Source: Macrostomum lignano (lineage: Eukaryota). From it: a DNA stretch of 64,000 nt. Shown here one piece after another: positions 1-63,017 of this stretch. The stretch is taken from the NCBI GenBank assembly GCA_002269645.1, contig NIVC01002598.1:1-64000 (forward strand), given 5' to 3'. The notes under the pieces were generated by a model. It was given only the letters and a program-made list of their open reading frames with translations, made no database searches and was not told the DNA's origin. The position numbers were made by a program, and so were the translations under genes. Numbering within the stretch: the stretch's first letter is position 1; each line of letters starts with the position of its first letter.

Positions 1-476
1 TTGCTTTGGATGGGCTGTTTTGTCCATAAGGTTGTAGAACTCATTGATGAAAGGTCTTTTTCTCCCCGTTTGTAGCTCTCCCTCAGTGTTGCTGGGCATT
101 GCGGCAGTCCGTTTCTCGATCTTCTGATCGCCCATTGGACTTGGAGATGTCGCCGTTGCTGTTCAGTGGCGGCGCTGTTCCTAATGTTCATCTCCTTCCG
201 ACTGCCTTGCTTGGTTCTGCCGATGTAAACAGTGGCTTGACTAATGTGTAGGTCGTGAGCGGCTCATCGATGGTGCAATCATCCACTGTGTCTAGCTCCG
301 TCGAATACATCTGATCATCCGAAGGGTGGGTTGAATATTTGTGAGTGATTAAATAGTGGCTGCTTACGAGTAGTGCAAAAATATATTCTAAATATCAGAG
401 CGCACACCAACAGAGGAATGAATATTGTTTAAAATGAAAATTGTCCGTCTACTTCCTCCCTCCTTGACTTCAAATG

Positions 477-833
477 TCAAGGAAGTTTCACTTTGCTCCT
501 CAGATTGTATTTTTCGAGCTGTGTCGGCCTGCGCGTCCAGCTCTCTGCCTGCACGCTCACTTCCTTTGTGAATCGCTGCCTTGGCTGTCGCTGGTGGCGC
601 TGTGGGTCGCTCGGTCTGAGGTCAGGAAGCATCACATGTGGTGTTGATGTGGCCATTGGTTTCAGCCTGTCGGTGTGCACTTGAAAGGACTCCTGATTTG
701 GATCGTCGATTTTCCGGATTGTGACTGAAGTCTGACTGCTCCTCTTCACAATCTCATAGGGTCCTGTAAATTTAGCTTGGTGCTTTCCCTGTCTCATAGG
801 AATTTGCAACATAACTCTACTCCCTACTTCCAA
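477..833 (-). CDS. Integrase C-terminal GPY/F region (third frameshifted piece)
   Basis: VGSRVML..KFTGPYEIV..VHTDRLKP motif typical of gypsy integrase ends. Confidence 0.85.
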   Translation of the reverse strand: MEVGSRVMLQIPMRQGKHQAKFTGPYEIVKRSSQTSVTIRKIDDPNQESFQVHTDRLKPMATSTPHVMLPDLRPSDPQRHQRQPRQRFTKEVSVQAESWTRRPTQLEKYNLRSKVKLP

Positions 834-2425
834 TGTAGTCGGTTTGCGGTTTTCATTTGCTTTTCCGGTATTCTTTCTTGTGCGACCTGTAGGTGGTGCC
901 TCGCTATCTCTCTGGCTAGTGTTACAGCTTCTTTCATTCTAGCTGCAAATGATGGTTCATCCATGTACTTTACCAAGTTCAACTGAGTAGTAAGTTGAGT
1001 AGGCATCAGAGGTCGTCGGGCGAAAACTAACTCGAATGGCGAGTAGGTCGATGATGCTTGCTTTGCCGTGTTATATGCAAACATTGTCGCCTGCAGGTAC
1101 TTATGCCACTGGTCTGGATTCTCGGCTGTGTAGTGGCGTAACATGTTGTGCAGTGTGGAGTGTAACCGTTCCACATGATTCGCTCGAGGATTATATGGAG
1201 ATGTCAAAATATGTTTGATCCCCAATATCTCTAAGGCTTCGGCTAGTAGAGTCGCTGTGAAGTTCTTTCCATTGTCCGTGGACATCTCAATCGGGATCCC
1301 AAAAGTACAGAACACTGTGAATAGTGTCTCTGCCGTCGTTTCAGCTGTAAGATCTGGGATCGGAATGGCGAATGCGAATTTCGAAAAGCAACAAAGAATT
1401 GTAAGAATGTGTGTTACTGTTTCATTTCTCACTTTAGTGGGCACCATTGGACCCACTATGTCGACTGACAATTTGTCCATTGGTCGCATTGGGATCTCCG
1501 AAAACTGAATCAGTCCCTTATGGGTTTTTCCTGATTTGTTCCTGGCGCACTCTATGCAGTTATTGCAGAATCCTCGGATGTCGGATATCATGGTAATCCA
1601 GAAGTAGTGTCTGCGGATTCTCTCTAGGGTTTTCTCAAATCCCAAATGTGCCGCTAATGGCAATGCGTGTAGTGAATGGCAAATGGTCTCACGATACTGA
1701 AATGGTAGGATGATCTGTTGTGTCTGATCCGCTGTTCTGTGTAAAACTCCTCCAATCTCCGCGTAGTCCGCCATGTGTCTATCGATGTGGCGTCTGTACT
1801 TCGGGGCCAGTGATTCCACTGCAGATTCTCCGTTCCACATCGCTCGGATTTGTTGGCAGAACGGGTCTTCCGCCTGGGCGTCCTTGAGTGCTTGTAAGTG
1901 TGGGATTGGATGTGATATTGTGACATAATTGACTTGGTCCATTGGTTTCTCGTCGTATAACCTTGAGAGTGCGTCCGGTACCGCATGTGTGACTGATGCT
2001 CCTGGTACATATTCGATCTGTATTTGAAACTGCTGTAAGTATAGTAACCATCGCAAAATTTGGTTGTTCTGCAGTATTCTGCCTGTGAGTAAGCCTCTGA
2101 GTGGAGCATGATCTACTCTCAGTAGTGTAGGTATGGGAGCGGCGTATAAGAACTGTTCAAAGTTTCTGAATGCATGGTAGACTGCTAAAAGTTCGAGATG
2201 AGTGATTCCGTATCTCGTTTCGGCGTCTCTGAGTTGTCTACTCGTGAATGCTATCGGTCTCTCCCGTCCCATCTCATCTTTCTGCGAAAGCATCGCTCCT
2301 ATTCCCTTAGTTGAGGCGTCACTCGAAACGATGAACTGCTTACTGAAATCCGGGTGTGCTAACCTGAGGTCCTCGCTATCCATTTCTTCATAGCCTCGAA
2401 AGTGTAGTTCGCTTCCTCGGTCCAC
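824..2425 (-). CDS. Gypsy RNase H and integrase (frameshifted continuation)
   Basis: LAHPDFSKQFIVSSDAS, ELLAVY, VDHAPL, DALSR; H-x6-H..C-x2-C zinc finger; VDIVGP, TDNGKNF, VERLH. Confidence 0.93.
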   Translation of the reverse strand: MDRGSELHFRGYEEMDSEDLRLAHPDFSKQFIVSSDASTKGIGAMLSQKDEMGRERPIAFTSRQLRDAETRYGITHLELLAVYHAFRNFEQFLYAAPIPTLLRVDHAPLRGLLTGRILQNNQILRWLLYLQQFQIQIEYVPGASVTHAVPDALSRLYDEKPMDQVNYVTISHPIPHLQALKDAQAEDPFCQQIRAMWNGESAVESLAPKYRRHIDRHMADYAEIGGVLHRTADQTQQIILPFQYRETICHSLHALPLAAHLGFEKTLERIRRHYFWITMISDIRGFCNNCIECARNKSGKTHKGLIQFSEIPMRPMDKLSVDIVGPMVPTKVRNETVTHILTILCCFSKFAFAIPIPDLTAETTAETLFTVFCTFGIPIEMSTDNGKNFTATLLAEALEILGIKHILTSPYNPRANHVERLHSTLHNMLRHYTAENPDQWHKYLQATMFAYNTAKQASSTYSPFELVFARRPLMPTQLTTQLNLVKYMDEPSFAARMKEAVTLAREIARHHLQVAQERIPEKQMKTANRLHWK

Positions 2426-3036
2426 TTTAGGTTGGTCTTCGTTGCTTGTCCTTTTGAGGTCGGTGCCCCTTTGAGCATATCCGTTAGCGGTTGTACTTTC
2501 TTGGCGTATTGTGGGACATGCTTCCTAAAAAAATTGCATAGTCCGAGGAATGCCCTTAACTGAGTCACATTGTCCGGCTTGGATACCTTTTGTACTTTAT
2601 CCACCAAGGTACGATCTATCTGGATGCCGTTCTGGTCAATCTTGTGTCCCAGGAAGGTAATGCTGGGTTGCGCAAAACGACATTTCTGGAGTTTCAGCTT
2701 TAATCCGTGCTTTTTCAAGGCTTCCAGAGTACTTTTGAGTGTCTTTAGGTGGTGTTCGAAATTTTCCGTGAATACTAGCAAATCGTCCACATATGTCGAG
2801 ACTCTTTCGATGTCTTTGAGGATGATGCTAGCCGCTCTAGACAGGGCGGCTGGGCTCGACTGTAATCCCATCGGTGCCCTTAAGAAGACTAGAGTTTCTC
2901 CGTCCGGTGTAGAAATCCCGCAGTATTTTCTACTGTCCTCGTGTAGGGCCACTTGAAAGAATGCCTGGGCCATGTCTAGAGTCGTGAAGTACTTTGATCC
3001 TTTGAGTTTGGCCAGCAGATCTGGAATCCTGGGCAT
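2359..3036 (-). CDS. Gypsy reverse transcriptase core (frameshifted continuation)
   Basis: MPRIPDLL..FTTLDMAQAFFQ..PMGLQSSP..YVDDLLV..FLGH..RAFLGLCNFFRKHV. Confidence 0.93.
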   Translation of the reverse strand: MPRIPDLLAKLKGSKYFTTLDMAQAFFQVALHEDSRKYCGISTPDGETLVFLRAPMGLQSSPAALSRAASIILKDIERVSTYVDDLLVFTENFEHHLKTLKSTLEALKKHGLKLKLQKCRFAQPSITFLGHKIDQNGIQIDRTLVDKVQKVSKPDNVTQLRAFLGLCNFFRKHVPQYAKKVQPLTDMLKGAPTSKGQATKTNLKWTEEANYTFEAMKKWIARTSG

Positions 3037-6000
3037 ACACTGCCTCTCGGGACCAACAATCGTTTAAGTCCCTGAAGTCCACACACAGGCGATACACTGG
3101 TTTAGCTTCCGGTGACTCCGATTTTTTCTTGACTAGGAGAATTGGTGAAATATACGGTGTCGGTGCTTTCATGAGAATCCCTTGCATCTCCATTCTGTCT
3201 ATCACCTTCTTCAGTTCTCCTGTCAGCTGGTGTGGAATAGGATATCTCTTGTTCAGCTTCACCTCCACATTCGGTTTTATGTGGAGTTCGTGTTTCGCTA
3301 CTTCTGTAAATCCTATCTCGTCATCTGAGAGACAAAATGCTTCCTTGTTCTCCCAGAGGATTTCTCTTAGTTGTTCTTTCTGCTCCTCTGTTATCTCGGC
3401 TCCCTGCAGATTAATCGCATCTCTAAATTCTGTCTCTGACATTGCCGGTGCCTGTTCCTGATTCGCGGCTATTTCATATGTCTCTATCTCTGTCTCATAT
3501 GAACCTATGGCTGTATCCGGGTACAGAGTGATCGGTCTGGCTGATTCGTTGGATATAAGAACCTGTACTTCTCCCTTCTCGTCCGGATGTACTATCTCCT
3601 GAGTCATTCCTATCGCCTTCTTCTCGGTGATGCGCCTATCTGGCTCGAAAAGTACCGTGTCAGGCAGTTCCTCCTTTGAGTCGGTTCTGGCTGTAATTTG
3701 AGCTGTTTCCCATGGATTCAGGTTTACCACGGAGACTAGTCTGATCTTATTTGTGGCTTCTTGGGCGGCGACTGTCATGATTTCATACGATCTGCCATTT
3801 AACTGCATCTGTTGCTGTTGGTAATTAATAGACATACCCTTCTGCAACTGACTTAAGTAATCAATTCCCAAGAGTGCATGATATCTCCCAGAACTCAGAT
3901 TAGGAATGACGTGAAACTTAACGTTGGCGATTGCGTCTCCTGCTTCGACTGGTAACGTGATCATCCCGGATTGCGTGAGTTTTCCTCCGTGTACTCCTTG
4001 CAGTTCTGTCGTCGGCTTCTCGAAGCTGTCACTGTATCGGCGCGCCGTCGCTTCGTCTATCAGCGACCTCTCTGCTCCGCTGTCTATCAGTGCTCTGCAG
4101 ACTCGCGTGCCTATCTTCAGTCGCGTCACCGTGTACTTCTGGCAGTTCGTAATTGCTGCCACTATCGGCGGTGGCCATGAGCTGATCGTCGGATAAATTG
4201 ATGAAGCCAGTGGAGCAGACGGAATCATCGGTTGATGCTGTTCCTTATTTGTGGCTGGTGCCTCTGGTGCTGGGCGGCGTGGGCCCGTGTGTCTGTAGTT
4301 AGTGTCCGTGCTTGGCTGTACTAACAATTCGTGTTGTTCTCGCGTCGCCTTTATCCGTCTTTGAATTGCCCGAATTCCTGGTCGCTCGTACTTTTTCCGA
4401 TAGAGCCTGTGACAAGCTATTATGGTTTTGAGTATGATGCAGAAGTATACCCAGAGAGCGGCAGCTCCAACGGCTATGTTGAAAATATTGAGTTTTATGC
4501 CTATCCACGGCATCCAAGATGCGAAGTCATAAGTTTTGAGGGCTATGTTTGCTTCCAATGGTGGGAGGTCGAGCGTCTGTGAAGTCTTCTGCTTTGGTAG
4601 TTTAAATACCGTTCTCAGAAATTCTCTCTGGTCCTTCATCTGCGTGTACAGATCGTGCACTGTAATTGGCCTTCGGATTTCTTCTATTTTAATATCTGTT
4701 TCTGGTGTAAAGATAATCCGTTTGATATTAGGTAATTTCATAGCCTCTATTCCCCAATCTTCGTTCTTCAATTTCTTTACCTGTATAAGTTCGAAGCTGG
4801 TGAAATTTGAGTCGACCTTGTACACTTTGTCCTCTTTGGGTAACAGGTATCCAGTTCGATTCGAACAATCCTGAAAAGTGGGGTGTTCCGTCTCAATTTC
4901 CATGGTTCTTACGTCCAAAAATCCTGTACGGTTGGTCTCCGCTACTTTGTACTTCAGCGGAGGTTTGGAGAAACATCGGCTTTGATTCCAGTATGGTTGA
5001 TGGAATTCGAAGTCGGTCACTGGGATGCATTTGAAGATGACAACATGCTGAGCTATCGTTCTGGCCTTGAGGTGCTCGTCTTTGAACAGTGTCCTCACCG
5101 CTAGTGTTGGTTGCATCCTTATAAAGTCTTTAATGTATCTAAAAATGGTCTGTTGGAGTCGGCATTGCTGAAGGATTACATGACGAGTCAGATCACCAAT
5201 TCTATTTTCCATTGTAAGTTCAACACTCTGTAATTTCACTGCTAGAGTTTCCTGTGATACCACGTCTCTCTTTGCCCTCTTTGCTGTGCTCGAGTTATTA
5301 AAATTACCTTGTACTATCGATAAGAATTCTGCTTCGGATCCTTCTAGTTTAACCAACTTTCCTTGTTCTGACCTGAATAGTTTAGTTGTCGTTCCTCCGC
5401 ATTTCAGCTCCATTGAGTGTGGTGGGTGTTTAAAAGTCAAAGCGTAGGTAGCGTCCTTGGACATGAACCATCCTGTGTGTATGGTTCCTTCAATTCGCCT
5501 GTCTTCCTGGTACGGGCAGTCAATTGCGGCGCTGGGTGTCCAGGCATATCTGTACTGGCGTTCTCCAGCGACCTTGAATTGTGTGTCGTAGTATCTCAGA
5601 GCTTCCCATAGTTTGTTGGGTACTTGTCTCTCCAACGGTGCATCCTTCTCGGCCTGTAGAGTGGACTCGTGAAGACATTTTCCTATGGTGTAATTGCAAT
5701 GTCCTAGTGGGATATATAGCGATGACATTTTCTTATTCTCCACGAAGAACGGAATTTTCGTTATCAGCGTGGACGCGGATTTCGTATATCTAGTTTGGGT
5801 ACTAGCCGTTGGGTCGAATTCCTCTGTTGTCCAGATGTGAGTAGTAAAGCGTTCAGCTTTGTTCGGGGCTTTCCCATCTTCTTCAAGGATGCCATCTGGA
5901 GTTCGGTAACCTTCCTCCCAGGACTCACAATCTTCCTCTGAAACTAGATGTTTCTGCACCGTAACAGTCATTTCTGGTCTTATCACTTTAGCGGCAATCG

Positions 6001-7852
6001 TTTTTAGTGCTACGCTGGTGAAGACATACGTTTCTCGGTAACAGATCTTGAGTGTTGATCGGTGAGTGACCTGGTTTGGTCTAAAGATTGTCAGGTTGAT
6101 CGGCTGTCGGTGCTGCTGTATGCTGCTAGGCATCTTGCACTCGATGTCCGGTGGCAGCTTGAAGATCTGTGGCCTGGAGGGCTCCGGACAGTACATCGGT
6201 GTGTCCACCCAGTTCTGGTGTCTTGGGTTTATCGTCTCCGCCGTGGTGCAGAGCAATGCGAAGAGTAGTATTTTTAGCAGGAGTGCGCATATCGGTCCGG
6301 CTGGTGCCTTCCAGCCATCACTAGCCTTTCTAGCCCTGTGCTCTCGCTTTCGTCCTTCGAGCTGTGGAGCGGTCTGAACTAGGGCGATTGTCGCCGTCTT
6401 GTTCTTCCTGTTCTGTCGTCTTGCTTGTATGACGTCGCTTCTTGTCCTTGTCGGCGTTGTCTCTTCCGACGTGCTGACTGCCAAGATATGTGCTGTCTGG
6501 CTAGACTCACTCGCCAGTTGGGCTGGCTGCGGACTGGGGTCCTGGACCGTGACTTCAGCGATCCGCTTTGGCTGCTGCCATTGCTGTTGATGCCGTCCTT
6601 GATCACCCTGGCGTTGTCGGCCGCATTCCGTTGTCCAATGGTTGTGCATGTTACAGTTCTTGCAATATCGCTGGCCTCTGCACTCCTTTGCAAAGTGGCC
6701 TCTCTTTCCGCATTTGTTGCACTTAATGTTACCTCGATCTTGTCTGCCCTGTGACTGCACTTGGCCCCCGGTATTCTTACCGAGGTTCCCGTTCCTTTGG
6801 TAGCACTTGTTGGCTGTGTGGCCTATCTTGTCACAGAGTTGGCATGTCGGCCTCGGATTGCCGTCTGGGTACTTGGTTGCGGTTTCCTTCTGTGGCTGTT
6901 GAGCTCGATCTTGGGTGCGCCGGTCCGCTTGCCTGATTGTAGTCTCCATCTGTGCTACCATGGCTGTCAGCTTGCGTACGTCGTTGGAGTCCTGTTCCAA
7001 CTCTCGCAATGCTTGCCATTGAAGTGCTTCGCGCACCATCTCCGGGACTGTCTGGTAACGTCCTCTGGCTAGATATAGTCGCAATGCCGGTGTGGCATTC
7101 TGTTGCACGTGCAGCATAATGTGGTCCTGGACTATGCGTTTGTTGCGGTTGATTCTTGCGCCTCTGTCGTTCTCATTCTCACCCTCCGGCGCTGGTTCTT
7201 GGAACACTGAGTTCTCGACTAGTTGTGTGATGTCGGCGATGAACTTGTTAACATCCTCTCCTGGATGCATCCTCCTCATGGAAAGTTGGAGTACTGCCGT
7301 GGGTCGGTCCATCGCTCCAGTGTCATACAGCTCTCGGAGTTGCGTTCGCACCCGTCCGTAATCCTCTCGGACGGCTTGTGGGAGTCCTGCGTATTGATTA
7401 CGTGCGTTAGGGCGCAACATAAGTGGTAGTAGTCGGCACTTCTCTTCGTCCGTTAGACCATATGTCGCTGTCTGGAGCTCGAATTCAGTCAGCCATTTGA
7501 CAAATGGCTGTCCCATCTCGTAGTCTCCTGCCGATAACTTGAGAGCCTGGACAATGGCTGGTAGGTCCCTGCCATGTACCATGGCGAGACGCTGCTGTAG
7601 TTCTCGGACTTGGTTCTGGAGATCTTCCATTGTGTTGTCCTCGTTGTCCGAGTCTGATGAATGCTCGTTGTTGTCTTCCCACTCGTCGTTGTGGTCTTCT
7701 GGCTGATCTAACTGGTCGTGTGACAGTTGTTGCTGATCGGCGTCTCCGGGTTCTGGAGTTCTGTTAGTACCTGTTTGAATGTCTTGGTTTAGATCTCCGT
7801 TATTCATATGCTGATATTCCGGTCTATTAGTTCTTTGCGGAGTTGGCCGCAA
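2930..7852 (-). CDS. Gag-Env-protease-RT(N-terminal) polyprotein, 1640 codons open (first ATG at 7807)
   Basis: ORF track. Gag has three CCHC knuckles (about 6803-6844, 6680-6721, 6623-6664); Env about 6295-4411; protease DSG about 4073-4081; RT start PYISPILLVKK..RLCVDFRDLN. Frameshifts out near 3040. Confidence 0.93.
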   Translation of the reverse strand: MRPTPQRTNRPEYQHMNNGDLNQDIQTGTNRTPEPGDADQQQLSHDQLDQPEDHNDEWEDNNEHSSDSDNEDNTMEDLQNQVRELQQRLAMVHGRDLPAIVQALKLSAGDYEMGQPFVKWLTEFELQTATYGLTDEEKCRLLPLMLRPNARNQYAGLPQAVREDYGRVRTQLRELYDTGAMDRPTAVLQLSMRRMHPGEDVNKFIADITQLVENSVFQEPAPEGENENDRGARINRNKRIVQDHIMLHVQQNATPALRLYLARGRYQTVPEMVREALQWQALRELEQDSNDVRKLTAMVAQMETTIRQADRRTQDRAQQPQKETATKYPDGNPRPTCQLCDKIGHTANKCYQRNGNLGKNTGGQVQSQGRQDRGNIKCNKCGKRGHFAKECRGQRYCKNCNMHNHWTTECGRQRQGDQGRHQQQWQQPKRIAEVTVQDPSPQPAQLASESSQTAHILAVSTSEETTPTRTRSDVIQARRQNRKNKTATIALVQTAPQLEGRKREHRARKASDGWKAPAGPICALLLKILLFALLCTTAETINPRHQNWVDTPMYCPEPSRPQIFKLPPDIECKMPSSIQQHRQPINLTIFRPNQVTHRSTLKICYRETYVFTSVALKTIAAKVIRPEMTVTVQKHLVSEEDCESWEEGYRTPDGILEEDGKAPNKAERFTTHIWTTEEFDPTASTQTRYTKSASTLITKIPFFVENKKMSSLYIPLGHCNYTIGKCLHESTLQAEKDAPLERQVPNKLWEALRYYDTQFKVAGERQYRYAWTPSAAIDCPYQEDRRIEGTIHTGWFMSKDATYALTFKHPPHSMELKCGGTTTKLFRSEQGKLVKLEGSEAEFLSIVQGNFNNSSTAKRAKRDVVSQETLAVKLQSVELTMENRIGDLTRHVILQQCRLQQTIFRYIKDFIRMQPTLAVRTLFKDEHLKARTIAQHVVIFKCIPVTDFEFHQPYWNQSRCFSKPPLKYKVAETNRTGFLDVRTMEIETEHPTFQDCSNRTGYLLPKEDKVYKVDSNFTSFELIQVKKLKNEDWGIEAMKLPNIKRIIFTPETDIKIEEIRRPITVHDLYTQMKDQREFLRTVFKLPKQKTSQTLDLPPLEANIALKTYDFASWMPWIGIKLNIFNIAVGAAALWVYFCIILKTIIACHRLYRKKYERPGIRAIQRRIKATREQHELLVQPSTDTNYRHTGPRRPAPEAPATNKEQHQPMIPSAPLASSIYPTISSWPPPIVAAITNCQKYTVTRLKIGTRVCRALIDSGAERSLIDEATARRYSDSFEKPTTELQGVHGGKLTQSGMITLPVEAGDAIANVKFHVIPNLSSGRYHALLGIDYLSQLQKGMSINYQQQQMQLNGRSYEIMTVAAQEATNKIRLVSVVNLNPWETAQITARTDSKEELPDTVLFEPDRRITEKKAIGMTQEIVHPDEKGEVQVLISNESARPITLYPDTAIGSYETEIETYEIAANQEQAPAMSETEFRDAINLQGAEITEEQKEQLREILWENKEAFCLSDDEIGFTEVAKHELHIKPNVEVKLNKRYPIPHQLTGELKKVIDRMEMQGILMKAPTPYISPILLVKKKSESPEAKPVYRLCVDFRDLNDCWSREAVYAQDSRSAGQTQRIKVLHDSRHGPGILSSGPTRGQ
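4411..6295 (-). CDS. env: Envelope glycoprotein segment, class III fusion protein (herpes gB/chuvirus G-like), embedded in the polyprotein
   Basis: Internal signal sequence ICALLLKILLFALLCTTAE, about 12 Cys, several NxS/T sequons, furin site RAKR (about 5268-5284), gB-like QQCRLQQ..RMQPT..CIPV..CFSKPP..GFL..DC, and TM segment IFNIAVGAAALWVYFCIILKTIIAC. Confidence 0.85.
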
Positions 7853-10057
7853 ATGATATGAATGTAAATGATGCGTATTTAATCAGCTTGACTTCAACAA
7901 AGTAGTTTGTCAGTGTGTGCTCTGATCTATCTAAGATCTCACAAAGTTTTAATTGGAATTCAAATATGAGAAAAGGGGTAGAGGTGTCGGATACGTTTCC
8001 GGCCAGGTGGTGCAGTCAATATGTAAATTTTCTTGCTTTTTGCAAATAAATGAGTGCATTTTTGTCTCGCTTGTCGTAGATATGCGCGAGGCTAAATAAT
8101 ATGGTTGCAGCATTTTATACACATGCACTCTTAGCGACCAAGCATTTTGCTTTTCCGCTTTCCGCCTTATTGGCTAGTTGGGCTATGCATTTCAATCTGC
8201 TTTAAGAAATGCCTCGAGGTTGTCTCATGGACTGGCTACCTAGGTTGGGGGCACAAATACTTACCCTGCCACGCTGTGTAGTAGATCATCAGCGCTATGG
8301 GCGGGCTGTCACGTTTGCTGGGGAGCTAAGTCAGATAGACGCAATGCATAGTGCCTAAGTGAGTTCTTCCCCCCTCTGTGTCCGCGCAGTCCTTAGTGCC
8401 AAGAGTATAACTCTCCTCAGAAGGTCTACTATCCTACTGAGCCTATTGAAGCGCGCTATAACAATGAAAAGCCCTATACGGTGTACTTTTAATGCTGCAA
8501 TTCACTTGACAGGTCCTTTACCTGTGATGAGTCGGCCGGCTCCTGCAAACGCTCCTTTAGAGCATAAGCTTTAATATGTGATAATGCTGGTCAGCGCTGC
8601 CTGAATTCTTTAAATGAGTACACCTTTCATGATAATTCGACCATGGTCCTATTAAAACAACTTCCTGGTAGCCCCTCGCTATTGATGTGCGGCCTTGGTG
8701 ATTTGCTTCACCAGCCGCTAAATATTTCTCTTCTAAGGAAAATCATACCGTAACTTTGTACATAACTATTCTACTTTTTTTGTTTGTTTTTAGAATTTTA
8801 TCGAATTTTTTTGAGCTTTTTCAATGAGAAACGCACATGTCCTCTTACGACACGATGTATAGTTTACTTAGTAGAGAAACAATTGTATGACAGCACTCAT
8901 CCTGGCCTTCCGCGTTCCTTCCTCCACCGTCGGAAATTACTCAGCCATTACTGGTCGATGTCGTCAGGTTGAAAAGTGTAGACTGCTCGATAGATGACTC
9001 GTAGGTCTGGGAACCACGTATAGCGCTTCAAGTTTTGATGGTTCTTGTCTTTACTTATATTTTTCGTATAATTGGTCTAGCGGATTATTGCAGTCTAGAT
9101 GTCTTGAAGGCTATAACTCCCTAACGACTATCGACACTCAGTATACTGGCTGGCTGTGATGATCTCTCGGGATCCTTATCTTAGATTCTACTCAAGAAAT
9201 AACACAAACACTATGAGTTTTCTAATGTGTTTAACGTAACGGAATTCAAATAGAATCTCTAACTGACTCGCGCGGCGATTCTTTTTCCGCGCTCCGCTCC
9301 GATATATATAATGTCTTTAAAACCCTCGATCCGAGGGGAAGAAAATACCATAGCAACAGTACGCATGGGAATTTGGGGTGAGTGAGGTCGCAGCCTCGAG
9401 TCTAGTACCGTTATTGTCATTAAACTAGTTGGTTGGCAGGCACGCCAACCCCTTTTCTTTCATCGATCCCGCCTTCTTGTGCGGACTCGGCCTCCTCTCG
9501 ATCTCGTTCCCGATCGGGTCCGGGCGGCTCCAGTTTCTGCTGGGTTGGGTCGATGCAGGCAGCTGCAGGTCGGGGTAGGCCGGGTTGATTCCGGGAGCTC
9601 CACGTCAGCACAGCTGCGGGTCCGGTCTCAGGCGGTTCCACGTCAGCGCCTCTGCGGATCCGGTGTCAGGCAGCTCCACGTCGGCACAGCTGCTGTCATG
9701 CCGAACCGGGCCTGCGCTGAAATGAATAGTTGATCTCTGGGGGCGGATTTTGTCTAATCATTCTCCTTTTCGCTTGCTCGCACTTTCTGCTGTTGCTATT
9801 TTTGGTTTTTAGCTTTCTGCTAGCGAACTCTTAAATTCCGTTCAGATTTCTAAGTCTTATAATTTTTACCTATTGACTTAAGAAACTTTAAATCATATAG
9901 CCTTTAACAAAAATTGTAACTATTTATTGCTTTTTTAAATCTAATTCTAGTTCTAAATCTAAAATCATATTTATTCTACCAGTTAGTCAATAATTTTATA
10001 ATTTCTTCTTTTTAAAGGTTAAAGCACAAGGACTATCAAAATTTATTCACAAGGCAA

Positions 10058-10776
10058 ATGAATCAAATCAAATGTCTTCCATGCTTTCAGTTGTCTCCAA
10101 TGCTTTCAACATCTGTGCCAGCAACTCATGCCAGTCTGCAGCAGCGCTCGCAGCAGCTGCAGCAGGAGAAGCAGCGCCTGATGCAGATGCTTGATGAGCG
10201 ACTCACTGGTCTGTTAGACATCCTTGGCAACGACTCTGACAGCCAATCCCACCCAGTGCAGCAGCCGTCTCCATCGTCAGACGATTCGCCAAAGCAGTCA
10301 GCGGCAGCAGAAGCCAGCAAGGCTCGGCAGGATCTGCCAGAGAAAGAGTTCCGCCAGCGTTGCAGTCTGCTCACCGAATTATTCGAACTGTCCCATTTTC
10401 GCACCCTTCAAAACGTATTTATTGCCTTGATGTCGCTCTACGGTTTGAGCACTCTGATCTGCGACACCATGGACGGCAAGTCCCTTGTTGACACCCTGTC
10501 GCTGCCGTTGCTGCGCTGGGCGTTCGGCCGTCTGCCCGATGCCATCGCAATCTGGATGGCGATGCACGCGGCGGTGCTGCTGGCAGCCTACCCAGCCTAC
10601 CATCACTATGCCGCCGCGCCACCTGCCTCCAGGCGCTGGCGACTCGCCTGGTTGGCTTCGTACATCGCTTTTCAGGTGGGTCGTTTGTGTCAAATCCATG
10701 AAGTTAGTTAGTTAGTTAGTTAGTTAGTTAGGCAGTTAGTTAGCTAGCTAGCTAGCTAGTTAGTTAGTTAGTTAGT

Positions 10777-10820
<44 letters not shown>

Positions 10821-10851
10821 CCAGTTAGTTAGTTAGTTAGTTAGTTAGTTG

Positions 10852-10929
<78 letters not shown>

Positions 10930-10958
10930 CAGTTAGTTAGTTAGTTAGTCAGTTAGCC

Positions 10959-10989
<31 letters not shown>

Positions 10990-10994
10990 CAGTC

Positions 10995-11026
<32 letters not shown>

Positions 11027-11027
11027 G

Positions 11028-11072
<45 letters not shown>

Positions 11073-11073
11073 G

Positions 11074-11108
<35 letters not shown>

Positions 11109-11123
11109 GTAGTTAGTTAGTTG

Positions 11124-11196
<73 letters not shown>

Positions 11197-11197
11197 G

Positions 11198-11229
<32 letters not shown>

Positions 11230-11230
11230 C

Positions 11231-11264
<34 letters not shown>

Positions 11265-11303
11265 CTAGTTAGTTAGTCAGTTAGTTAGTTAGTTAGTTAG
11301 TTG

Positions 11304-11345
<42 letters not shown>

Positions 11346-11346
11346 C

Positions 11347-11385
<39 letters not shown>

Positions 11386-11442
11386 CAGTCAGTTAGTTAG
11401 TTAGTTAGTCAGTTAGCCAGTTAGTTAGTTAGTTAGTTAGTC

Positions 11443-11474
<32 letters not shown>

Positions 11475-11497
11475 GGTTAGTTAGTTGGTTAGTTAGT

Positions 11498-11548
<51 letters not shown>

Positions 11549-11549
11549 G

Positions 11550-11580
<31 letters not shown>

Positions 11581-11629
11581 GTAGGTAGTTAGTTAGTTGG
11601 TTAGTTAGTTAGTTAGTTAGTTAGTTAGG

Positions 11630-11681
<52 letters not shown>

Positions 11682-11682
11682 C

Positions 11683-11732
<50 letters not shown>

Positions 11733-11778
11733 CTGATTAGTTAGTTAGTTAGTTAGTCAGTTAGTTAGTTAGTTAGTC

Positions 11779-11836
<58 letters not shown>

Positions 11837-11849
11837 GTAGTTAGTTAGG

Positions 11850-11880
<31 letters not shown>

Positions 11881-11885
11881 CTAGC

Positions 11886-11917
<32 letters not shown>

Positions 11918-11968
11918 AGTTAGTTAGTTAGGTAGTTAGTTAGTTAGTTAGTTAGTTAGCTAGCTAGC

Positions 11969-12007
<39 letters not shown>

Positions 12008-12011
12008 CTGA

Positions 12012-12048
<37 letters not shown>

Positions 12049-12049
12049 C

Positions 12050-12087
<38 letters not shown>

Positions 12088-12092
12088 CTAGC

Positions 12093-12124
<32 letters not shown>

Positions 12125-12175
12125 AGTTAGTTAGTTAGGTAGTTAGTTAGTTAGTTAGTTAGTTAGCTAGCTAGC

Positions 12176-12214
<39 letters not shown>

Positions 12215-12218
12215 CTGA

Positions 12219-12255
<37 letters not shown>

Positions 12256-12256
12256 C

Positions 12257-12353
<97 letters not shown>

Positions 12354-14714
12354 ATGTAACCTGTCCATACTTTTACTGCTGAGCAGCTCCGCTCCCAAAC
12401 GATCTCGTAATAATCAAGTTTTCTTGCAACCAAACCGATGTGCTTTTGTTAATATATTATTGTAAATATTATAACATATATTATTATTCTATTACAAACC
12501 TGAGCGTGGCACCGGTTTTGTTTTCGTCGTTGTAAGTGACCTTTAAAATGCTAGTTGCGCTACTGTGGGCAGTAGCGTATTCAGAAAATGCGCAATTAAA
12601 GCTTTTGGGAAAGTGCTTTGACGATACAAGCAAACTCTGCAATACTTTATTGTGAACTCTCCCACACTTGCAAAAAATTGCAGCTTGGCTTCCTCGTGCT
12701 GCCGCTGCGCTCCCTGCTCGCCGTCCAGCTGCCTCCGGCCTCCGCCATCATTGTGCTCACCGAACAGAGTCGCCTAATGATGAAGCTGCACGCGTTCGTG
12801 TGGGAGAGCGCCAGCCGGGGCGGACCATGTCCGAGCTTTGGTCGCTTTCTCTACTTCCTGTTCGCGCCCACGCTGGTGTACAGGGATGCTTATCCGCAGG
12901 ACAGGCCAACCAGGTGAGATGGCTGTTTAAGATGCTGTGTACAGGATTCCGCAGCCAGCAGGAAGTTAACGCAAACCCCTATCAGGAAAATAAAAATCAT
13001 AGTATGTCCTAGACAATGCATGACTCTAACAGCCCGGCGCGGTCGTCAACTGCTGTTTTAATACACAAAAACATTTCTCTTCAGCTTCTGTCCAACAAAT
13101 AATTATCCTGATGTTTTTGGTGACCAGTCGTATTAACGACTCAGCAACTGTTGAAAAGGCTTTGATAATTCGTCAATAGTGCGACGTGACCATTCAATGG
13201 CTGCTTCTATCTCTTCGTCATCCATGGTGATGCCTTGCAATGTCCTAAGCCGCTGAAGGACTTATTTCAAACGTATGCTATGCTCTTCTAATGTCCTTCC
13301 CATCACAATGATATCATCGAGATAACGAGCCAGCTTCCCCTGTCAATCATTGCAGTACACTGTGCATTACATACTGGAAGGTCTTGAAGCAATGAAGAAA
13401 ATTGTGACGCTTTTTTCGGTCGACTCAAGACCATTTCAAACGAATGTTCTAACGAAATCAACAAAACAATCTGTTTCAAGGAGAGGATTTTGATGGATTT
13501 CCGTTTAACGGAGAGGATTTTTATGGATACCTCTATTTCACGGAGAGGATTTAAAAAATATCTGTTTCACGAGGAGTCTAATATGGAGGAATTAGAATAA
13601 GTCTAATAGGAGTCTAATATGGGCCAGCTAACAAAGGTCTCATTATCATCAATTTGAATAGAATTCTTAATAAATGCCTACTGTTGGGCTTCTATCACAT
13701 TTATCCCATGTTTATGCCTATCCCGTCCAGGTGGCGCTACGTTGCCTCTAACCTGGGCCAGGTGGCCGGCTGCGCCCTGTTCGCCCACCTGCTGCTGGTC
13801 CGCTACTGCCTGCCTGTGTTCTCACACTGGCGCCGGCCCAGCCTCGCACACTTCATCCACACAGTGTTCCAGTCTGCTTTGCCGGGCGGCCTAGTCCTGC
13901 TACTAGCCTTCTTCGCCGTGCTGCACTCCTGGTTGAATGCGTTCGCCGAGATGTTGCGCTTCGGCGATCGGCAGTTCTATCGCGACTGGTGGAATGTCAC
14001 CTCGTTTCGCAGCTGGTACAGGTGAGACAGCTGTTTGGCGGGTGTCAGTTATATCTCAGGTGAGACAGCTGTTTGGCGGGTGTCAGTTATATCTCAGGTG
14101 AGACAGCTGTTTGGCGGGGGTCAGTTATATCTCAGGTGAGACAGCTGTTTGGCGGGTGTCAGTTATATCTCAGGTGAGACAGCTGTTTGGCGGGTGTCAG
14201 TTATATCTCAGGTGAGACAGCTGTTTGGCGGGTGTCAGTCAGTCTCAGGTGTCAGGTGCTAGTACGAGCAGCTACTATCGCAACTATGAAGGCCAACTCT
14301 ATGGCCCAACCCCCCCCCCGCAGAACCTGGAACACAGTAGTGCATGATTGGCTGTACGCCTACGTGTACAGAGAGCTGTGCCTCCGCTTCGGCAAGCGGT
14401 CCAGTTCCCTAGCAACCGGCTGCGTGTTCCTGCTCTCCTCCCTATTCCATGAGTACATTTTGGCATTCAGCTTGGGCTTCTTCTTTCCGGCTCTGTTTGT
14501 CTTCTTCTGCGGCGCCGGGTTCGGTTTGATGTTCGCCAACGGGCGCTCCCGGTTCTGGTCCGTGTTCGTGTGGGCCAGCCTGTTCCTTGGCATGGGCGCT
14601 CTCATGTGCCTGTACAGCATGGAGTGGTTCGCCAGAAGGAACTGCCCCACAGCTTATCCTGGTCGGCCCGTTCTGGACTTCCTGGTGCCGCGATCGTTCA
14701 CGTGTCCCATGTGA
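10058..14714 (+). CDS. SOAT: Sterol O-acyltransferase (ACAT/SOAT, MBOAT family), about 509 aa
   Basis: Phase-consistent GT-AG exons 10058-10675, 12684-12913, 13731-14021, 14324-14714. Motifs FLFAPTLVYRD, FYRDWWN, RTWNTVVHDWLY and catalytic HEY. Exact start uncertain (10058 vs 10100, or an upstream exon). Confidence 0.93.
10703..12353. repeat. (GTTA)n tetranucleotide microsatellite, about 1.65 kb, in SOAT intron 1
   Basis: Direct reading; occasional GTCA/GCTA/GGTA variants. Confidence 0.99.
13110..13450 (-). pseudogene. Decayed gypsy RT fragment in SOAT intron 2
   Basis: Minus strand reads LARYLDDIIVMGRTLEEHSIRLK*VLQRLR around 13240-13340. Confidence 0.65.
14019..14246 (+). repeat. 38-bp tandem repeat (about 6 copies); each unit contains CAG|GTGAG, the SOAT exon 3 donor
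   Basis: Unit caggtgagacagctgtttggcgggtgtcagttatatct starting at 14019, 14057, 14095 and onward. Confidence 0.95.
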
Positions 14715-44400: not shown

Positions 44401-47400
44401 GACTGCCCGGCCAAATTGCAGGCTAAATTGGTCCCCAAGGGCCCAGCAGGGAGCGGCCTGTGATGAATAAAAAAATCTGCGTCGCTGAAAATCAGCGCAA
44501 TATTCGCCTGTTAACAACGCTCTCTGGCGCGCACTGCAGCCAGGGGAATTCCGTTGGGAGTGGGGAGTAGGGTAAGGAGGCGAGGGGGGCGATTAATCAG
44601 ATCCTGCGACAGGATTCGAAATGAATTCGAGTGATGGCTGGGGAAGGGAGAAGGCGGCTAGTTAGGGCGACTATTGGGGATTTTGGGACTTCTTGGCGGG
44701 ATTGGATAATGATGCTCCAGTGCGCTATGAAGGCGGGAAAACTGATAGACTTGGAGGGCACTCGCGCGACTGAGTGGCAGAAGCTTTGGGAGAGAAGCTG
44801 GTAGAGAGAGAGTTGGTGTGTGCGTCACAGGGGATTCAATGAGAATAGAAGAGAGGAGAATATGAGACATACCATGGTATATTGGTTGGAGGCTGAGGGA
44901 AGCGGAGAGGGGCAGCGGAGAAGGACAAGCGGTGAGGGCCAGGCGGTGAGGGCCAGGCGGTGAGGGGCAGGCGATTAGGGGGCAGGCGGGGAGGGACAGG
45001 CGGTGAGGGGCAGGCGATTAGGGGGCAGGCGGGGAGGGGAAGGCGGTGAGGGGCAGGCAGTGAGGGGCAGGCGGTGAGGGCCAGGCAAAATGAGCAATCG
45101 AGCTCGGCCGAGAATGGGAGAGACTGCGCGCTGAGATGAGGCTTAGCGGGCAACCGCAAGAGGCCAAATAGCAGCTGATGCACTCTCCACCTCTCTCTGA
45201 TTGATTGATCGGCGATGAGGTGCGCAGGCTAGTCCAGACTCGCGGAACTTTGATGAAGATAAAAACTGGATGCGAAAGTCTCCAAAGCGCAGGCTTAAGC
45301 GCGGGTTTAAACATTTGAGAACAGGAAAATCAAGCTAGCAAGGAGAGGTCTGTTTGCTCTGCAGAACAAGCTCCAATTTTCATGGCTGAATTCCTATCCA
45401 GTGTTTGCTCTGCCCGCCAATCTCAGTTAGTCCATCTTGTGCTTTAAAAAATCGGAAATATAAATCGCTGTGGAGTACGAGAGGAGCCAGTCGATCTGAC
45501 ACCACACGCTGGGTGCAGGAAAACCTATGCTTGTTCCTTGAGCCTGCCTGTCTTAAGGAAGTGGGAGCAATCGCCAATATGGATTTCTGAGTACTCGTGT
45601 CCCTTCAGCAATCAGGTCCCGTCTCTCTGCCCCGGTTACTTCAGGATGCGAGGTGAACTCCTGCCGAATAGACCTATGCTTTTGACAAAATTGTTTTCGC
45701 TACAGATAGGTGGAAATTAACTTTGCTAGCTTATCCAGCTTAGCCAACAAAGTTATCAACACTACATATCGGTAGAAATCAACTTTTCCAACTTGAATCT
45801 TGAGCCAATAAAGTTATTAACAATACAAATCGGTAGAAATCAACTCTTCCAACTTGAATCTTGAGCCAATAAAGTTGTCGAATAGACAATAAACTAATAG
45901 AACGAGATTTAAGTGGTGCAGAAAGGAAGAGAGAGAGGTGAAGGGCCTAAGCCGCCAGATTAACTTGTATTTATACTAACAGAATGAACAGGTTAGTTGT
46001 ATAATCTATGGTGAATTAACGATTGAGATTGTCTGTGGGGAAGAGCATGGTAGACGAAGGGAGTCGGCTAACTGAAAAGTACAAGGCTGAATTGCAAAAC
46101 AGAAAGTACAAATAATTGGAGGATGGAAATCCGACAGGCTCGGGGGCCAACAGGTAACGATAAATAGCGGGGATTTTGAACGGTAAAACGGTAGAATTAT
46201 TAACTTGTGACTGTGAGTATTCGGTTATGTAGTTCAGTTCAGGCGTCAAAAATGCCGTCACGGATTTTTTGCCGGCGTATGGCGCGCTTGTCGCGGGGTG
46301 ATTGGCCAGTCGGCGGGCGGACAGGTGGACCGGCAGGCGGGCCGGCAGGCGGGCCGGCAGGCGGGCCGGCAGGCGGGCCGGCAAGCGGGCCGTTGATGTC
46401 ACACTCGAGGGGTACGAGGTGTCCAATGGATCGCCGGACATCGTGGCCAGATACGGTGCGGATGGTCACATACCGGACGACACCGGTTGGGTCCGGATGC
46501 AGCTGCAGAATCCGGCACACTTTCCATGTCGCTCGAGGCGTAGGTTCAGCCAGCAGACAGGCTTGGCCGGGTTGAAAGCTGATGCCGTCGCTGGTGTGCT
46601 GTCTGTGGCGATGCCGTTCTTGTAGATGGACTGACCGGAGATGGCTGAGGTACTCCTGTCTCCACCGGCCCCAGAACTCGTTAAGGATGGCGTCGCGGCG
46701 GCGATGAAGAGCTCGGAGGCGGTCAGCAGTGGAAGTACCGGCAGGCAGGAAGGCGTCGTGGTGGCCCGGAAGTAACAGGTGAGGGCCAACCCCGAGGAGG
46801 TGAGCCGGAGTCAGCGGTGACGGATCGGCCGGGTCGTTGGAGACAGTGGTCAGCGGCCGGCAATTGAGGATGGCCTCGATTTTGACGAGGAGAGTGTGTA
46901 GTTCCTCATCGGAGATGCGTTTGCGCCAGAGGGCGGGACGAAGACTGGACTTTGTGAGGGCGACGAGGCGCTCGACCGCGCCTTGGTGCCAGGGGGCTCG
47001 GGCTGGCGCGAACTTGAACACCAGGGGTCGCGAGGCGGCGAGTGGTCCGAGGTTGTTGTGGAGCTTTTTCTGGAAGTCGGTGGCGATGTGGTTCTCGATG
47101 AACTTTCCTGCGGCTTGGAAGGCGGTGGCCTGGTCAAGGTAGACAGTGCATTTGGTGAGACCGCGGCGGCACCAGAAGCGCTCGAATGCGTGAAGGACGG
47201 CGTCAGCGGAGTAGTCGTAGAGGATCTCGATGTGGAGGGCTCTTGAAGTGCAGCACGTGATGAGCAGGGCCCAGCGCTTGGTGGAGACTCTGAGCTTATG
47301 GTCGTAGGTGAAGACGGGCCCGAGCTGGTCGACGAGTACGGAGGCGAAGGGACCAGCTTCGGCGTCTAGGCGCTCCTTGGGCAGTTGGCCATGTGCGGGC

Positions 47401-58760: not shown

Positions 58761-63017
<4,257 letters not shown>

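What the first reader, a model, noticed from the sequence alone, without database searches (positions are those of the whole stretch)
4411..6295. The embedded Env looks like a class III (herpes gB/chuvirus G-type) fusogen
Seen: after RAKR the sequence reads VILQQCRLQQ..RMQPTLAVRTLF..KARTIAQHVVIFKCIPV..SRCFSKPPLKYK..GFL..EI..QDCS. By recall, this parallels the gB core (WC.xQ..KINP..AIY..PV.A...GD....C..V..CYSRPLV.F..GQL..NE...EPC). Sequons NLT, NYT, NNS/NSS, NQS, NRT (twice) and NFT cluster here. Inference: capture from a gB-like viral glycoprotein, not an F-type errantivirus env.
Basis: partly seen in the sequence, partly recalled or inferred. Interest (0 to 1): 0.7.

Follow-up and report, generated by a model that had tools for sequence, protein, structure and literature searches.

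The report
Herpes-gB-type envelope in gag-env-pol retrotransposon
A jumping gene in this animal genome carries, between its capsid and enzyme genes, a membrane-fusion protein built like the herpesvirus entry protein gB; the finding is real, but elements of this kind have already been described in worms and other invertebrates.

Summary
The fold call is right, and the kind of element is already published. Window 6295-4412 (minus strand) is an unbroken env inside one reading frame running gag - env - protease - RT of a Ty3/gypsy element. It has an internal signal, 8 sequons, an RAKR site and one C-terminal anchor. Pfam gives Monjiviricetes_fusion above its cut-off. A profile of 55 related sequences hits herpesvirus gB in 54 of 54 PDB rows, best E 4e-21. 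An AlphaFold2 model (pLDDT 78) matches gB best (Z 11-12), Chandipura G and Bourbon/Thogoto GP weakly, and nyamivirus G best among viral models. It is not F-type. "Capture" is only partly supported. The closest relatives include many other gag-env-pol retroelement envs (31 of 67 hits), viral proteins are 10-17% identical, and no donor can be named. Chary and Hayashi (PMC13524379) already report gB-type GAG-ENV-POL elements in flatworms, nematodes and bryozoans. This copy has a broken pol and no LTR pair in the window. It is divergent (best full-length relative 31%), with a domain I insertion and atypical fusion loops. Trimer and fusion activity were not tested.

The parts
6296..7807 (-). gag, in frame with env; three CCHC zinc knuckles at 6844-6803, 6721-6680 and 6664-6623; first ATG at 7807 (next at 7630)
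   Evidence: zf-CCHC; similar to the gag of P0002 at E 5e-24
6239..6295 (-). internal signal / first hydrophobic segment (aa 530-548), preceded by a basic stretch; signal-peptidase site after ...TTA inferred
   Evidence: one of only two hydrophobic segments in the 1650-aa frame; net charge +5 before it, -2 after
4493..6238 (-). class III (gB-type) Env ectodomain, 582 aa, 12 cysteines, 8 sequons
5540..6064 (-). domain I (beta-rich fusion domain), approximate limits from the model
   Evidence: secondary structure; gB alignment; domain naming from established gB knowledge
5972..6028 (-). candidate fusion loop 1: long and aliphatic, tip at lower model confidence
   Evidence: amphipathic-helix idea not supported
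5801..5839 (-). candidate fusion loop 2: has Trp and Phe but also three acidic residues, unlike the aromatic-rich loops of most relatives
5564..5665 (-). about 35-aa helical insertion late in domain I; present in P0002 and P0006, a short (8-aa) one in P0032 and P0064, absent in 9 of 13 relatives aligned
5267..5278 (-). RAKR furin-type site between domains II and III, in a low-confidence loop; not followed by a hydrophobic fusion peptide
   Evidence: gammaherpesvirus gB has its basic site at the matching place
5114..5251 (-). domain III central helix (46 residues in the model), the trimer core in gB
   Evidence: VIA match to PRV gB domain IV: Z 11.1, rmsd 3.5, 164 residues aligned; Z 11.4, rmsd 3.8, 169 residues
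4412..4486 (-). C-terminal transmembrane anchor (aa 1133-1157), followed by a basic stretch
   Evidence: net charge +7 after it
4130..4411 (-). cytoplasmic linker joining Env to the protease, with no stop codon
3839..4129 (-). aspartic protease (DSG at 4084)
   Evidence: RVP, E 1e-6
477..3838 (-). RT - RNase H - integrase of Ty3/gypsy order, in four reading-frame pieces (the long frame to 2930, then 3063-2359, 2524-824 and 938-477): broken by three frame changes
452..465 (-). purine run just after the pol stop, a possible polypurine tract; no matching LTR pair found in the window

Best explanation
This is the envelope gene of a Ty3/gypsy (Metaviridae-type) element of the GAG-ENV-POL kind, and it encodes a class III fusion protein of the gB / Monjiviricetes-G branch. 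Shown: the order of domains in one frame, the two hydrophobic segments, the sequon enrichment, and the gB-like fold of the monomer model. Inferred mechanism: the element is translated as one polyprotein. Gag stays in the cytosol. The first hydrophobic segment acts as an internal signal that threads the ectodomain into the ER, where it is glycosylated and disulfide-bonded, and signal peptidase frees its N-terminus. The second hydrophobic segment stops transfer, so protease-RT-RNase H-integrase return to the cytosol attached to Env's tail until the element's protease cuts them free. Furin cuts at RAKR. Trimeric Env on budded particles inserts its domain I loops into a target membrane and refolds into the postfusion hairpin, carrying the element between cells, probably soma to germ line or stem cells. 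The env has been inherited with this retroelement lineage for a long time. This particular copy has a broken pol as assembled and is unlikely to move on its own.
For: Pfam PF24664 at 33.6 bits, cut-off 27, the only family at E up to 1. At least 40 of 67 relatives hit PF24664 or Glycoprotein_B at E up to 0.01 (lists were cut to five families for 7 polyproteins). The profile hits gB in 54 of 54 PDB rows, in both N- and C-terminal halves. Model pLDDT 77.8; Foldseek PDB best E 3.6e-18, all 34 rows shown are gB; the Foldseek-independent search of 48,161 chains puts gB at ranks 1-6, Chandipura G at 7, Bourbon GP at 9, with PH domains matching domain II. All 12 ectodomain cysteines are conserved in at least 94% of ungapped relatives. 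31 of 67 hits carry an upstream CCHC and/or a downstream protease or RT motif in the same protein, 13 of 67 both. 9 of those 13 show both hydrophobic segments and an R-x-K/R-R site between them. In a 10-row test the RT and env trees share both strongly supported pairs; Mantel rho 0.43, p 0.011. PMC13524379 (sections 5, 6, 9 part 1, 11; supplement rows) reports the same order and env type in Nematoda, Bryozoa and Platyhelminthes.
Against: Whole-chain superposition is poor (TM 0.27-0.31, rmsd 12-19 A to postfusion gB; pTM 0.54), so the domain arrangement in the model is uncertain. The fusion loops are atypical. 36 of 67 hits show no gag or pol motif, many being fragments, and their origin is unnamed. 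4 of 13 polyproteins missed one hydrophobic segment at my threshold. The tree test is small, mostly unresolved (5 and 4 of 7 inner branches open), flagged for long branches, and kin share distances, so it does not prove co-evolution. No processing, particle or fusion step was observed; PMC13524379 itself says the entry mechanism of gB-type elements is unknown.
Confidence: 0.8

Rival explanations
1. Recent capture of a viral glycoprotein (nyamivirus-, chuvirus- or herpesvirus-like) by this element or its immediate family.
For: The top viral fold match is Nyavirus midwayense G (E 1.4e-24), with chu-like and xinmo-like G also listed. Env GC is lower than gag (0.454 vs 0.535). The title of Sacco et al. 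2022 claims RNA-virus glycoprotein capture for nematode elements (reference list of PMC13524379; paper not held).
Against: Viral matches are 10-17% identical, against 22-38% for retroelement relatives. Env GC is close to protease and pol (0.467-0.478). Relatives share the same position in the polyprotein. The window pairs with P0002 in both the RT and env trees.
Confidence: 0.08
2. The class III fold is kept but this sub-lineage's Env no longer fuses membranes by itself: it serves as a membrane anchor, assembly scaffold or receptor binder, or needs a partner as herpes gB needs gH/gL.
For: Loop 2 is acidic and loop 1 lacks the usual aromatic tip; there is a lineage-specific insertion. P0002 carries about 200 extra Thr-rich residues before the furin site. 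The element encodes no recognisable accessory glycoprotein in the window.
Against: All 12 cysteines, the furin site, central helix and anchor are retained. Loop 1 is still hydrophobic on average (mean hydropathy about 1.2). Rhabdovirus G and gp64 fuse without partners (established knowledge).
Confidence: 0.1
3. F-type (class I) errantivirus env, or a cellular protein matched by chance.
For: One relative, P0004, has a below-cut-off Baculo_F match in its membrane-proximal part (E 2.8e-4). The phmmer PDB rows were TRPM5 at E 0.64 or worse.
Against: No Baculo_F match for the window protein at E up to 1. No hydrophobic peptide after RAKR. The profile and fold searches go to class III. The best cellular fold is a PH domain (Z 5.7, 79 residues), which is a known part of class III proteins.
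Confidence: 0.01

Closest known systems
HSV/gB-type GAG-ENV-POL errantiviruses of Platyhelminthes, Nematoda and Bryozoa (Chary and Hayashi 2026, PMC13524379)
   Same: Ty3/gypsy pol, gag-env-pol order, gB-type ectodomain between hydrophobic segments. The six-cysteine pattern of domains I-II matches by eye the Nematoda_C1 rows of supplement file 2. The paper lists 9 flatworm elements, one from Macrostomum lignano with 16 copies.
   Different: This copy has a broken pol and no LTR pair in view. The primer-binding site listed for the Macrostomum element has no match at a 5' position on the element's strand, so identity with a catalogued element is not shown. It has a domain I insertion, absent from the six Schmidtea rows shown, although those rows have a 39-column gap at a similar place. 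The paper's main text has no hit for 'fused', 'single ORF', 'frameshift', 'readthrough' or 'splic', so polyprotein processing is not treated under those words.
Nematode endogenous retroviruses (NERVs), Sacco et al. 2022, PMID 35550022
   Same: Flipped env-pol order (as cited in PMC13524379). A continuous gag-env-pro-pol frame and a Nyamiviridae-like glycoprotein (recalled), which agrees with the top viral match here.
   Different: Paper not held, so not compared. Described as nematode-restricted (recalled); the window's host is not established.
Herpesvirus glycoprotein B (EBV gp110, HCMV, HSV, PRV gB)
   Same: Domains I-IV, central helix, cysteine skeleton, basic cleavage site before domain III.
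   Different: 9-17% identity; shorter; no evidence of gH/gL partners; embedded in a polyprotein.
Monjiviricetes G proteins (nyami-, chu-, xinmo-, bornaviruses; PF24664) and Anakin BEL/Pao env (Dezordi et al. 2020, PMC7642597, abstract read)
   Same: Same Pfam family and fold.
   Different: Anakin is a BEL/Pao element of mosquitoes. This pol is gypsy-type and lacks the Pao domains that the neighbouring Pao element does hit. No closer tie to chuvirus G than to nyamivirus G or gB.
Rhabdovirus G and Thogoto/Bourbon GP (gp64-like)
   Same: Class III fold; partial matches: Chandipura G Z 6.0, Bourbon GP Z 5.3, Thogoto GP Z 4.9, rabies G Z 4.5.
   Different: Clearly weaker than gB (Z 11-12) and covering about 150-200 residues.

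Membership tests
Class III viral fusion proteins | beta-rich fusion domain I, PH-like domain II, long central helix III, beta domain IV | tested here: met
   gB Z 11.6 over 401 residues (rmsd 13.1); domain IV Z 11.1, rmsd 3.5 over 164; PH domains match model 42-315
Class III viral fusion proteins | sequence homology to gB or G by profile | tested here: met
   PF24664 above cut-off; 54 of 54 PDB rows are gB, best E 4.3e-21
Class III viral fusion proteins | conserved disulfide skeleton | tested here: met
   12 of 12 cysteines conserved among relatives; 7 fall on gB cysteines in the profile alignment; bond geometry not measured
Class III viral fusion proteins | type I membrane glycoprotein (signal, glycosylated ectodomain, C-terminal anchor) | tested here: met
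   hydropathy, charge bias and sequon enrichment; predicted, not observed
Class III viral fusion proteins | hydrophobic internal fusion loops at the tip of domain I | tested here: inconclusive
   two hairpin tips present; loop 1 aliphatic, loop 2 partly acidic
Class III viral fusion proteins | homotrimer | not testable with these tools
Class III viral fusion proteins | drives membrane fusion | not testable with these tools
   needs a bench assay
HSV/gB-type GAG-ENV-POL Ty3/gypsy elements | pol with PR-RT-RH-IN order and gypsy-type domains | tested here: met
   (RVP, RVT_1, RT_RNaseH, Integrase_H2C2, rve, in that order)
HSV/gB-type GAG-ENV-POL Ty3/gypsy elements | gB-type env located between gag and pol | tested here: met
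HSV/gB-type GAG-ENV-POL Ty3/gypsy elements | flanking LTRs and tRNA primer-binding site | tested here: inconclusive
   no repeat pair found; the window ends 476 nt after the pol stop, so the 3' LTR may lie outside
HSV/gB-type GAG-ENV-POL Ty3/gypsy elements | placement in one of the paper's POL clades | not tested
Intact, multicopy errantivirus copies (the paper's catalogue criterion) | uninterrupted gag, env and pol | tested here: not met
   pol lies in four frame pieces; not filed as an intact copy
F-type (class I) errantivirus env | Baculo_F homology and a hydrophobic fusion peptide directly after the furin site | tested here: not met
Anakin (BEL/Pao with chuvirus G) | BEL/Pao gag-pol (Peptidase_A17, DUF1759, DUF5641) | tested here: not met
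   absent from this element, present in the separate Pao element at 46239-51854

The most novel reading that the evidence does not exclude
The window, with P0002 and P0006, marks a deep sub-lineage of gB-type envs with rebuilt fusion machinery: a helical insertion in domain I and an acidic second loop that may act as a different trigger or receptor-binding module. It is made as a flavivirus/alphavirus-style membrane-threaded polyprotein, in which Gag ends in a membrane anchor and Pol is packaged by being tethered to Env's tail at 1:1:1. That would be a way of assembling an enveloped retroelement particle that needs neither env splicing nor a gag-pol frameshift, and a stand-alone minimal gB.
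Probability: 0.3. Interest if true: 0.55.

Novelty: new member of a known kind. Interest (0 to 1): 0.3.

Why it matters
It confirms by independent profile and fold evidence that gag-env-pol gypsy elements carry gB-type fusogens, and it adds a divergent member (31% to its best full-length relative). No gB-type retroelement env has a known entry mechanism according to PMC13524379, so an intact 630-codon env is a usable test object for whether a gB-like protein fuses without gH/gL and how a single membrane-threaded gag-env-pol polyprotein is processed. As a discovery it is not new.

Tried and rejected
Single-sequence AlphaFold2 gave a useless model (pLDDT 30.8) and was not searched. phmmer of the single sequence against PDB found only chance rows. 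Three word-seeded homologue searches found nothing: 0 of 4187, 0 of 6978 and 0 of 4453 candidates; this reflects their sensitivity, since the full HMMER scan found 67. The cluster look-up for names and sources of ten hits could not be made, so all relatives are unnamed and their hosts unknown. The idea that fusion loop 1 is an amphipathic helix was not supported (best 13-mer at the 84th percentile of the ectodomain). LTR search: no repeat between 1-480 and 7881-10700, nor between 1-10700 and the rest of the window. The primer-binding site listed for the Macrostomum element gave 6 matches with up to 2 mismatches against 4.8 expected, none at the element's 5' end on its strand. Baculovirus gp64 was not among the rows shown; that is not an exclusion, and the Atlas's top cluster carried Baculo_gp64 on 55% of members (recognition score low, lead only). 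Two 'RT before env' regex matches (P0005, P0045) lie in gag and were discounted. For the fold, 13 of 67 hits were left out of alignment A2 (long polyproteins, and partial or misaligned rows). The tree used the 9 of 67 hits that contain an RT core with its YxDD motif and enough flanking sequence (P0068 ends too soon after the motif). Sacco et al. 2022 is not held and a term search did not find a copy. A search for Macrostomum + LTR retrotransposon + envelope + gypsy found 0 papers; 'gag-env-pol' + 'retrotransposon' found only the eLife paper. The viral and metagenome contig collections stayed unchecked and the genome collection is prokaryotic, so other copies, copy number and DNA context of relatives were not examined. 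Figures of PMC13524379 (cysteine-bridge classes, trees) could not be seen and may place this subtype.

Full report
Observation. The finding lies on the minus strand inside one stop-free frame, 7882-2930, of 1650 codons. All quoted motifs and sequons are present. The ectodomain has 8 sequons in 582 residues, against 2.6 expected by shuffling (0.2% of 5000 shuffles reach 8). The 1650-aa frame has exactly two hydrophobic segments, aa 531-547 and 1141-1157, which bracket the finding's coordinates; basic residues lie before the first and after the second.

The element. Upstream in the same frame is a gag with three CCHC knuckles. Downstream, without a stop, come an aspartic protease and the start of RT. 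RT, RNase H and integrase continue in three further frame pieces down to 477. The order is that of Ty3/gypsy; Pao domains are absent here and present in a separate element at 46239-51854. Pol is therefore broken three times as assembled, while gag-env-protease is unbroken. No LTR pair was found, but the window ends 476 nt after the pol stop. The host is a metazoan-type, repeat-rich genome with intron-split SOAT and carnitine-acyltransferase genes; its identity is not established.

Fold, by sequence. Pfam gives one family for the env, Monjiviricetes_fusion, at 33.6 bits against a cut-off of 27. A single-sequence PDB search found nothing real, and three word-seeded searches found no relatives. 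The exhaustive HMMER scan found 67 relatives at 22-38% identity; at least 40 of 67 hit PF24664 or Glycoprotein_B. A profile of the window plus 54 of these hit herpesvirus gB in 54 of 54 PDB rows, best E 4.3e-21. All 12 ectodomain cysteines are conserved in at least 94% of ungapped relatives. The Atlas search pointed the same way but had a low recognition value and counts as a lead only.

Fold, by structure. With the alignment, AlphaFold2 gave pLDDT 77.8 and pTM 0.54: long beta hairpins, a disordered loop at the RAKR site, a 46-residue central helix and a beta-rich domain after it. Foldseek against PDB returned gB in all 34 rows shown, best E 3.6e-18, though with TM about 0.3. VIA-align gave Z 11-12 to gB, and rmsd 3.5-3.8 over 164-169 residues for domain IV alone. 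In the Foldseek-independent search gB took ranks 1-6, Chandipura G followed at Z 6.0 and Bourbon GP at 5.3, and PH domains matched domain II. Among predicted viral structures the best were nyamivirus G (E 1.4e-24), Beihai rhabdo-like virus 3, entomopoxvirus proteins, herpesvirus gB and chu-like G, at 10-17% identity in the leading rows. The large whole-chain rmsd means the relative placement of domains is uncertain, as is usual for a monomer model of a protein with two conformations. The trimer could not be modelled.

Not F-type. There is no Baculo_F match and no hydrophobic peptide after RAKR. One relative has a weak, below-cut-off Baculo_F match near its anchor.

Origin. Of 67 relatives, 22 have a CCHC upstream, 22 a protease or RT motif downstream, 31 either and 13 both; the other 36 include many fragments. 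Nine of the 13 show both hydrophobic segments and a furin-type site. In 10-row trees, RT and env share their two strongly supported pairs, including window + P0002; Mantel rho is 0.43, p 0.011. Most branches are open and long branches were flagged, so this is weak support. Env GC matches protease and pol, not gag. Together these favour long inheritance in a retroelement lineage over recent capture. A viral source at some remote time is likely but cannot be named, and its direction is not shown.

Mechanism (inferred). One polyprotein is threaded through the ER membrane twice: Gag cytosolic, Env luminal and glycosylated, Pol cytosolic and hanging from Env's tail, 108 residues from the anchor to the protease motif. 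Signal peptidase, furin and the element's protease would separate the parts, and trimeric Env would fuse particle and target membranes as class III proteins do (established knowledge). I put this at 0.8 for the lineage; the fold itself is near certain. The main doubt is the fusion loops: loop 1 is long and aliphatic, loop 2 carries three acidic residues, and domain I has an insertion of about 35 residues shared with P0002 and P0006 and absent from 9 of 13 aligned relatives. An amphipathic-helix reading of loop 1 failed.

What is known. Chary and Hayashi 2026 (PMC13524379; I read the abstract, part 1 of section 5, all of section 6, part 1 of section 9, section 11, term passages and rows of three supplements) report gB-type envs as widespread in Ty3/gypsy elements. 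They state that nematode, bryozoan and flatworm elements have only this type, in GAG-ENV-POL order, and argue for an ancient origin with an unknown entry mechanism. They cite Sacco et al. 2022 for the flipped order in nematodes (not held; its single-frame description is recalled). Dezordi et al. 2020 (PMC7642597, abstract) describe chuvirus-type glycoproteins in mosquito BEL/Pao elements. The primer-binding site of the one Macrostomum element in the catalogue is not found at this element's 5' end, so I cannot say this family is catalogued.

Verdict. A real class III, gB-type env in a gag-env-pol gypsy element: a new, divergent member of a known kind, in a copy whose pol is broken. Interest 0.3. 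The most novel open reading, remodelled fusion loops plus membrane-tethered Pol packaging, has probability about 0.3 and would merit about 0.55.

Noticed in passing
window 45871-52125 (minus): Apparently young BEL/Pao element: one intact 1871-aa frame (51854-46239), terminal repeats 45871-46136 and 51860-52125 at 99.6% identity, no env domain by Pfam.
   Followed up: partly
window 10016-14711 (plus): Exons of a sterol O-acyltransferase (SOAT/ACAT, MBOAT family) gene, with a long (TTAG)n array inside an intron; it begins about 2.2 kb upstream of the gag start, on the other strand.
   Followed up: partly
window 59096-60550 (minus): Exons of a choline/carnitine acyltransferase gene.
   Followed up: no
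window 1-394 (minus): Coding-looking short frames 3' of pol, two of which run off the window edge; no Pfam match. Could be an extra 3' gene of the element or LTR sequence.
   Followed up: partly
window 7883-9800: About 2 kb upstream of gag with no long frame and no copy of the 3' end; unclear whether it is a long leader, an LTR whose partner lies outside the window, or host DNA.
   Followed up: partly
P0002 about 1000-1200: The closest full-length relative has about 200 extra Thr/Ser/Pro-rich, mucin-like residues before the furin site, which the window's Env lacks.
   Followed up: no
P0032, P0037, P0064: Three relatives show two protease-like D-S/T-G motifs after env; Pfam finds two aspartyl-protease stretches in P0032.
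   Followed up: no
P0053 5-144: A NADAR domain sits upstream of the env-like region in one relative.
   Followed up: no
fold search: Several uncharacterised entomopoxvirus proteins (W6JPK9, Q9YVZ3, A0A916KPE9) rank among the top structural matches, i.e. they look like gB-type glycoproteins.
   Followed up: no
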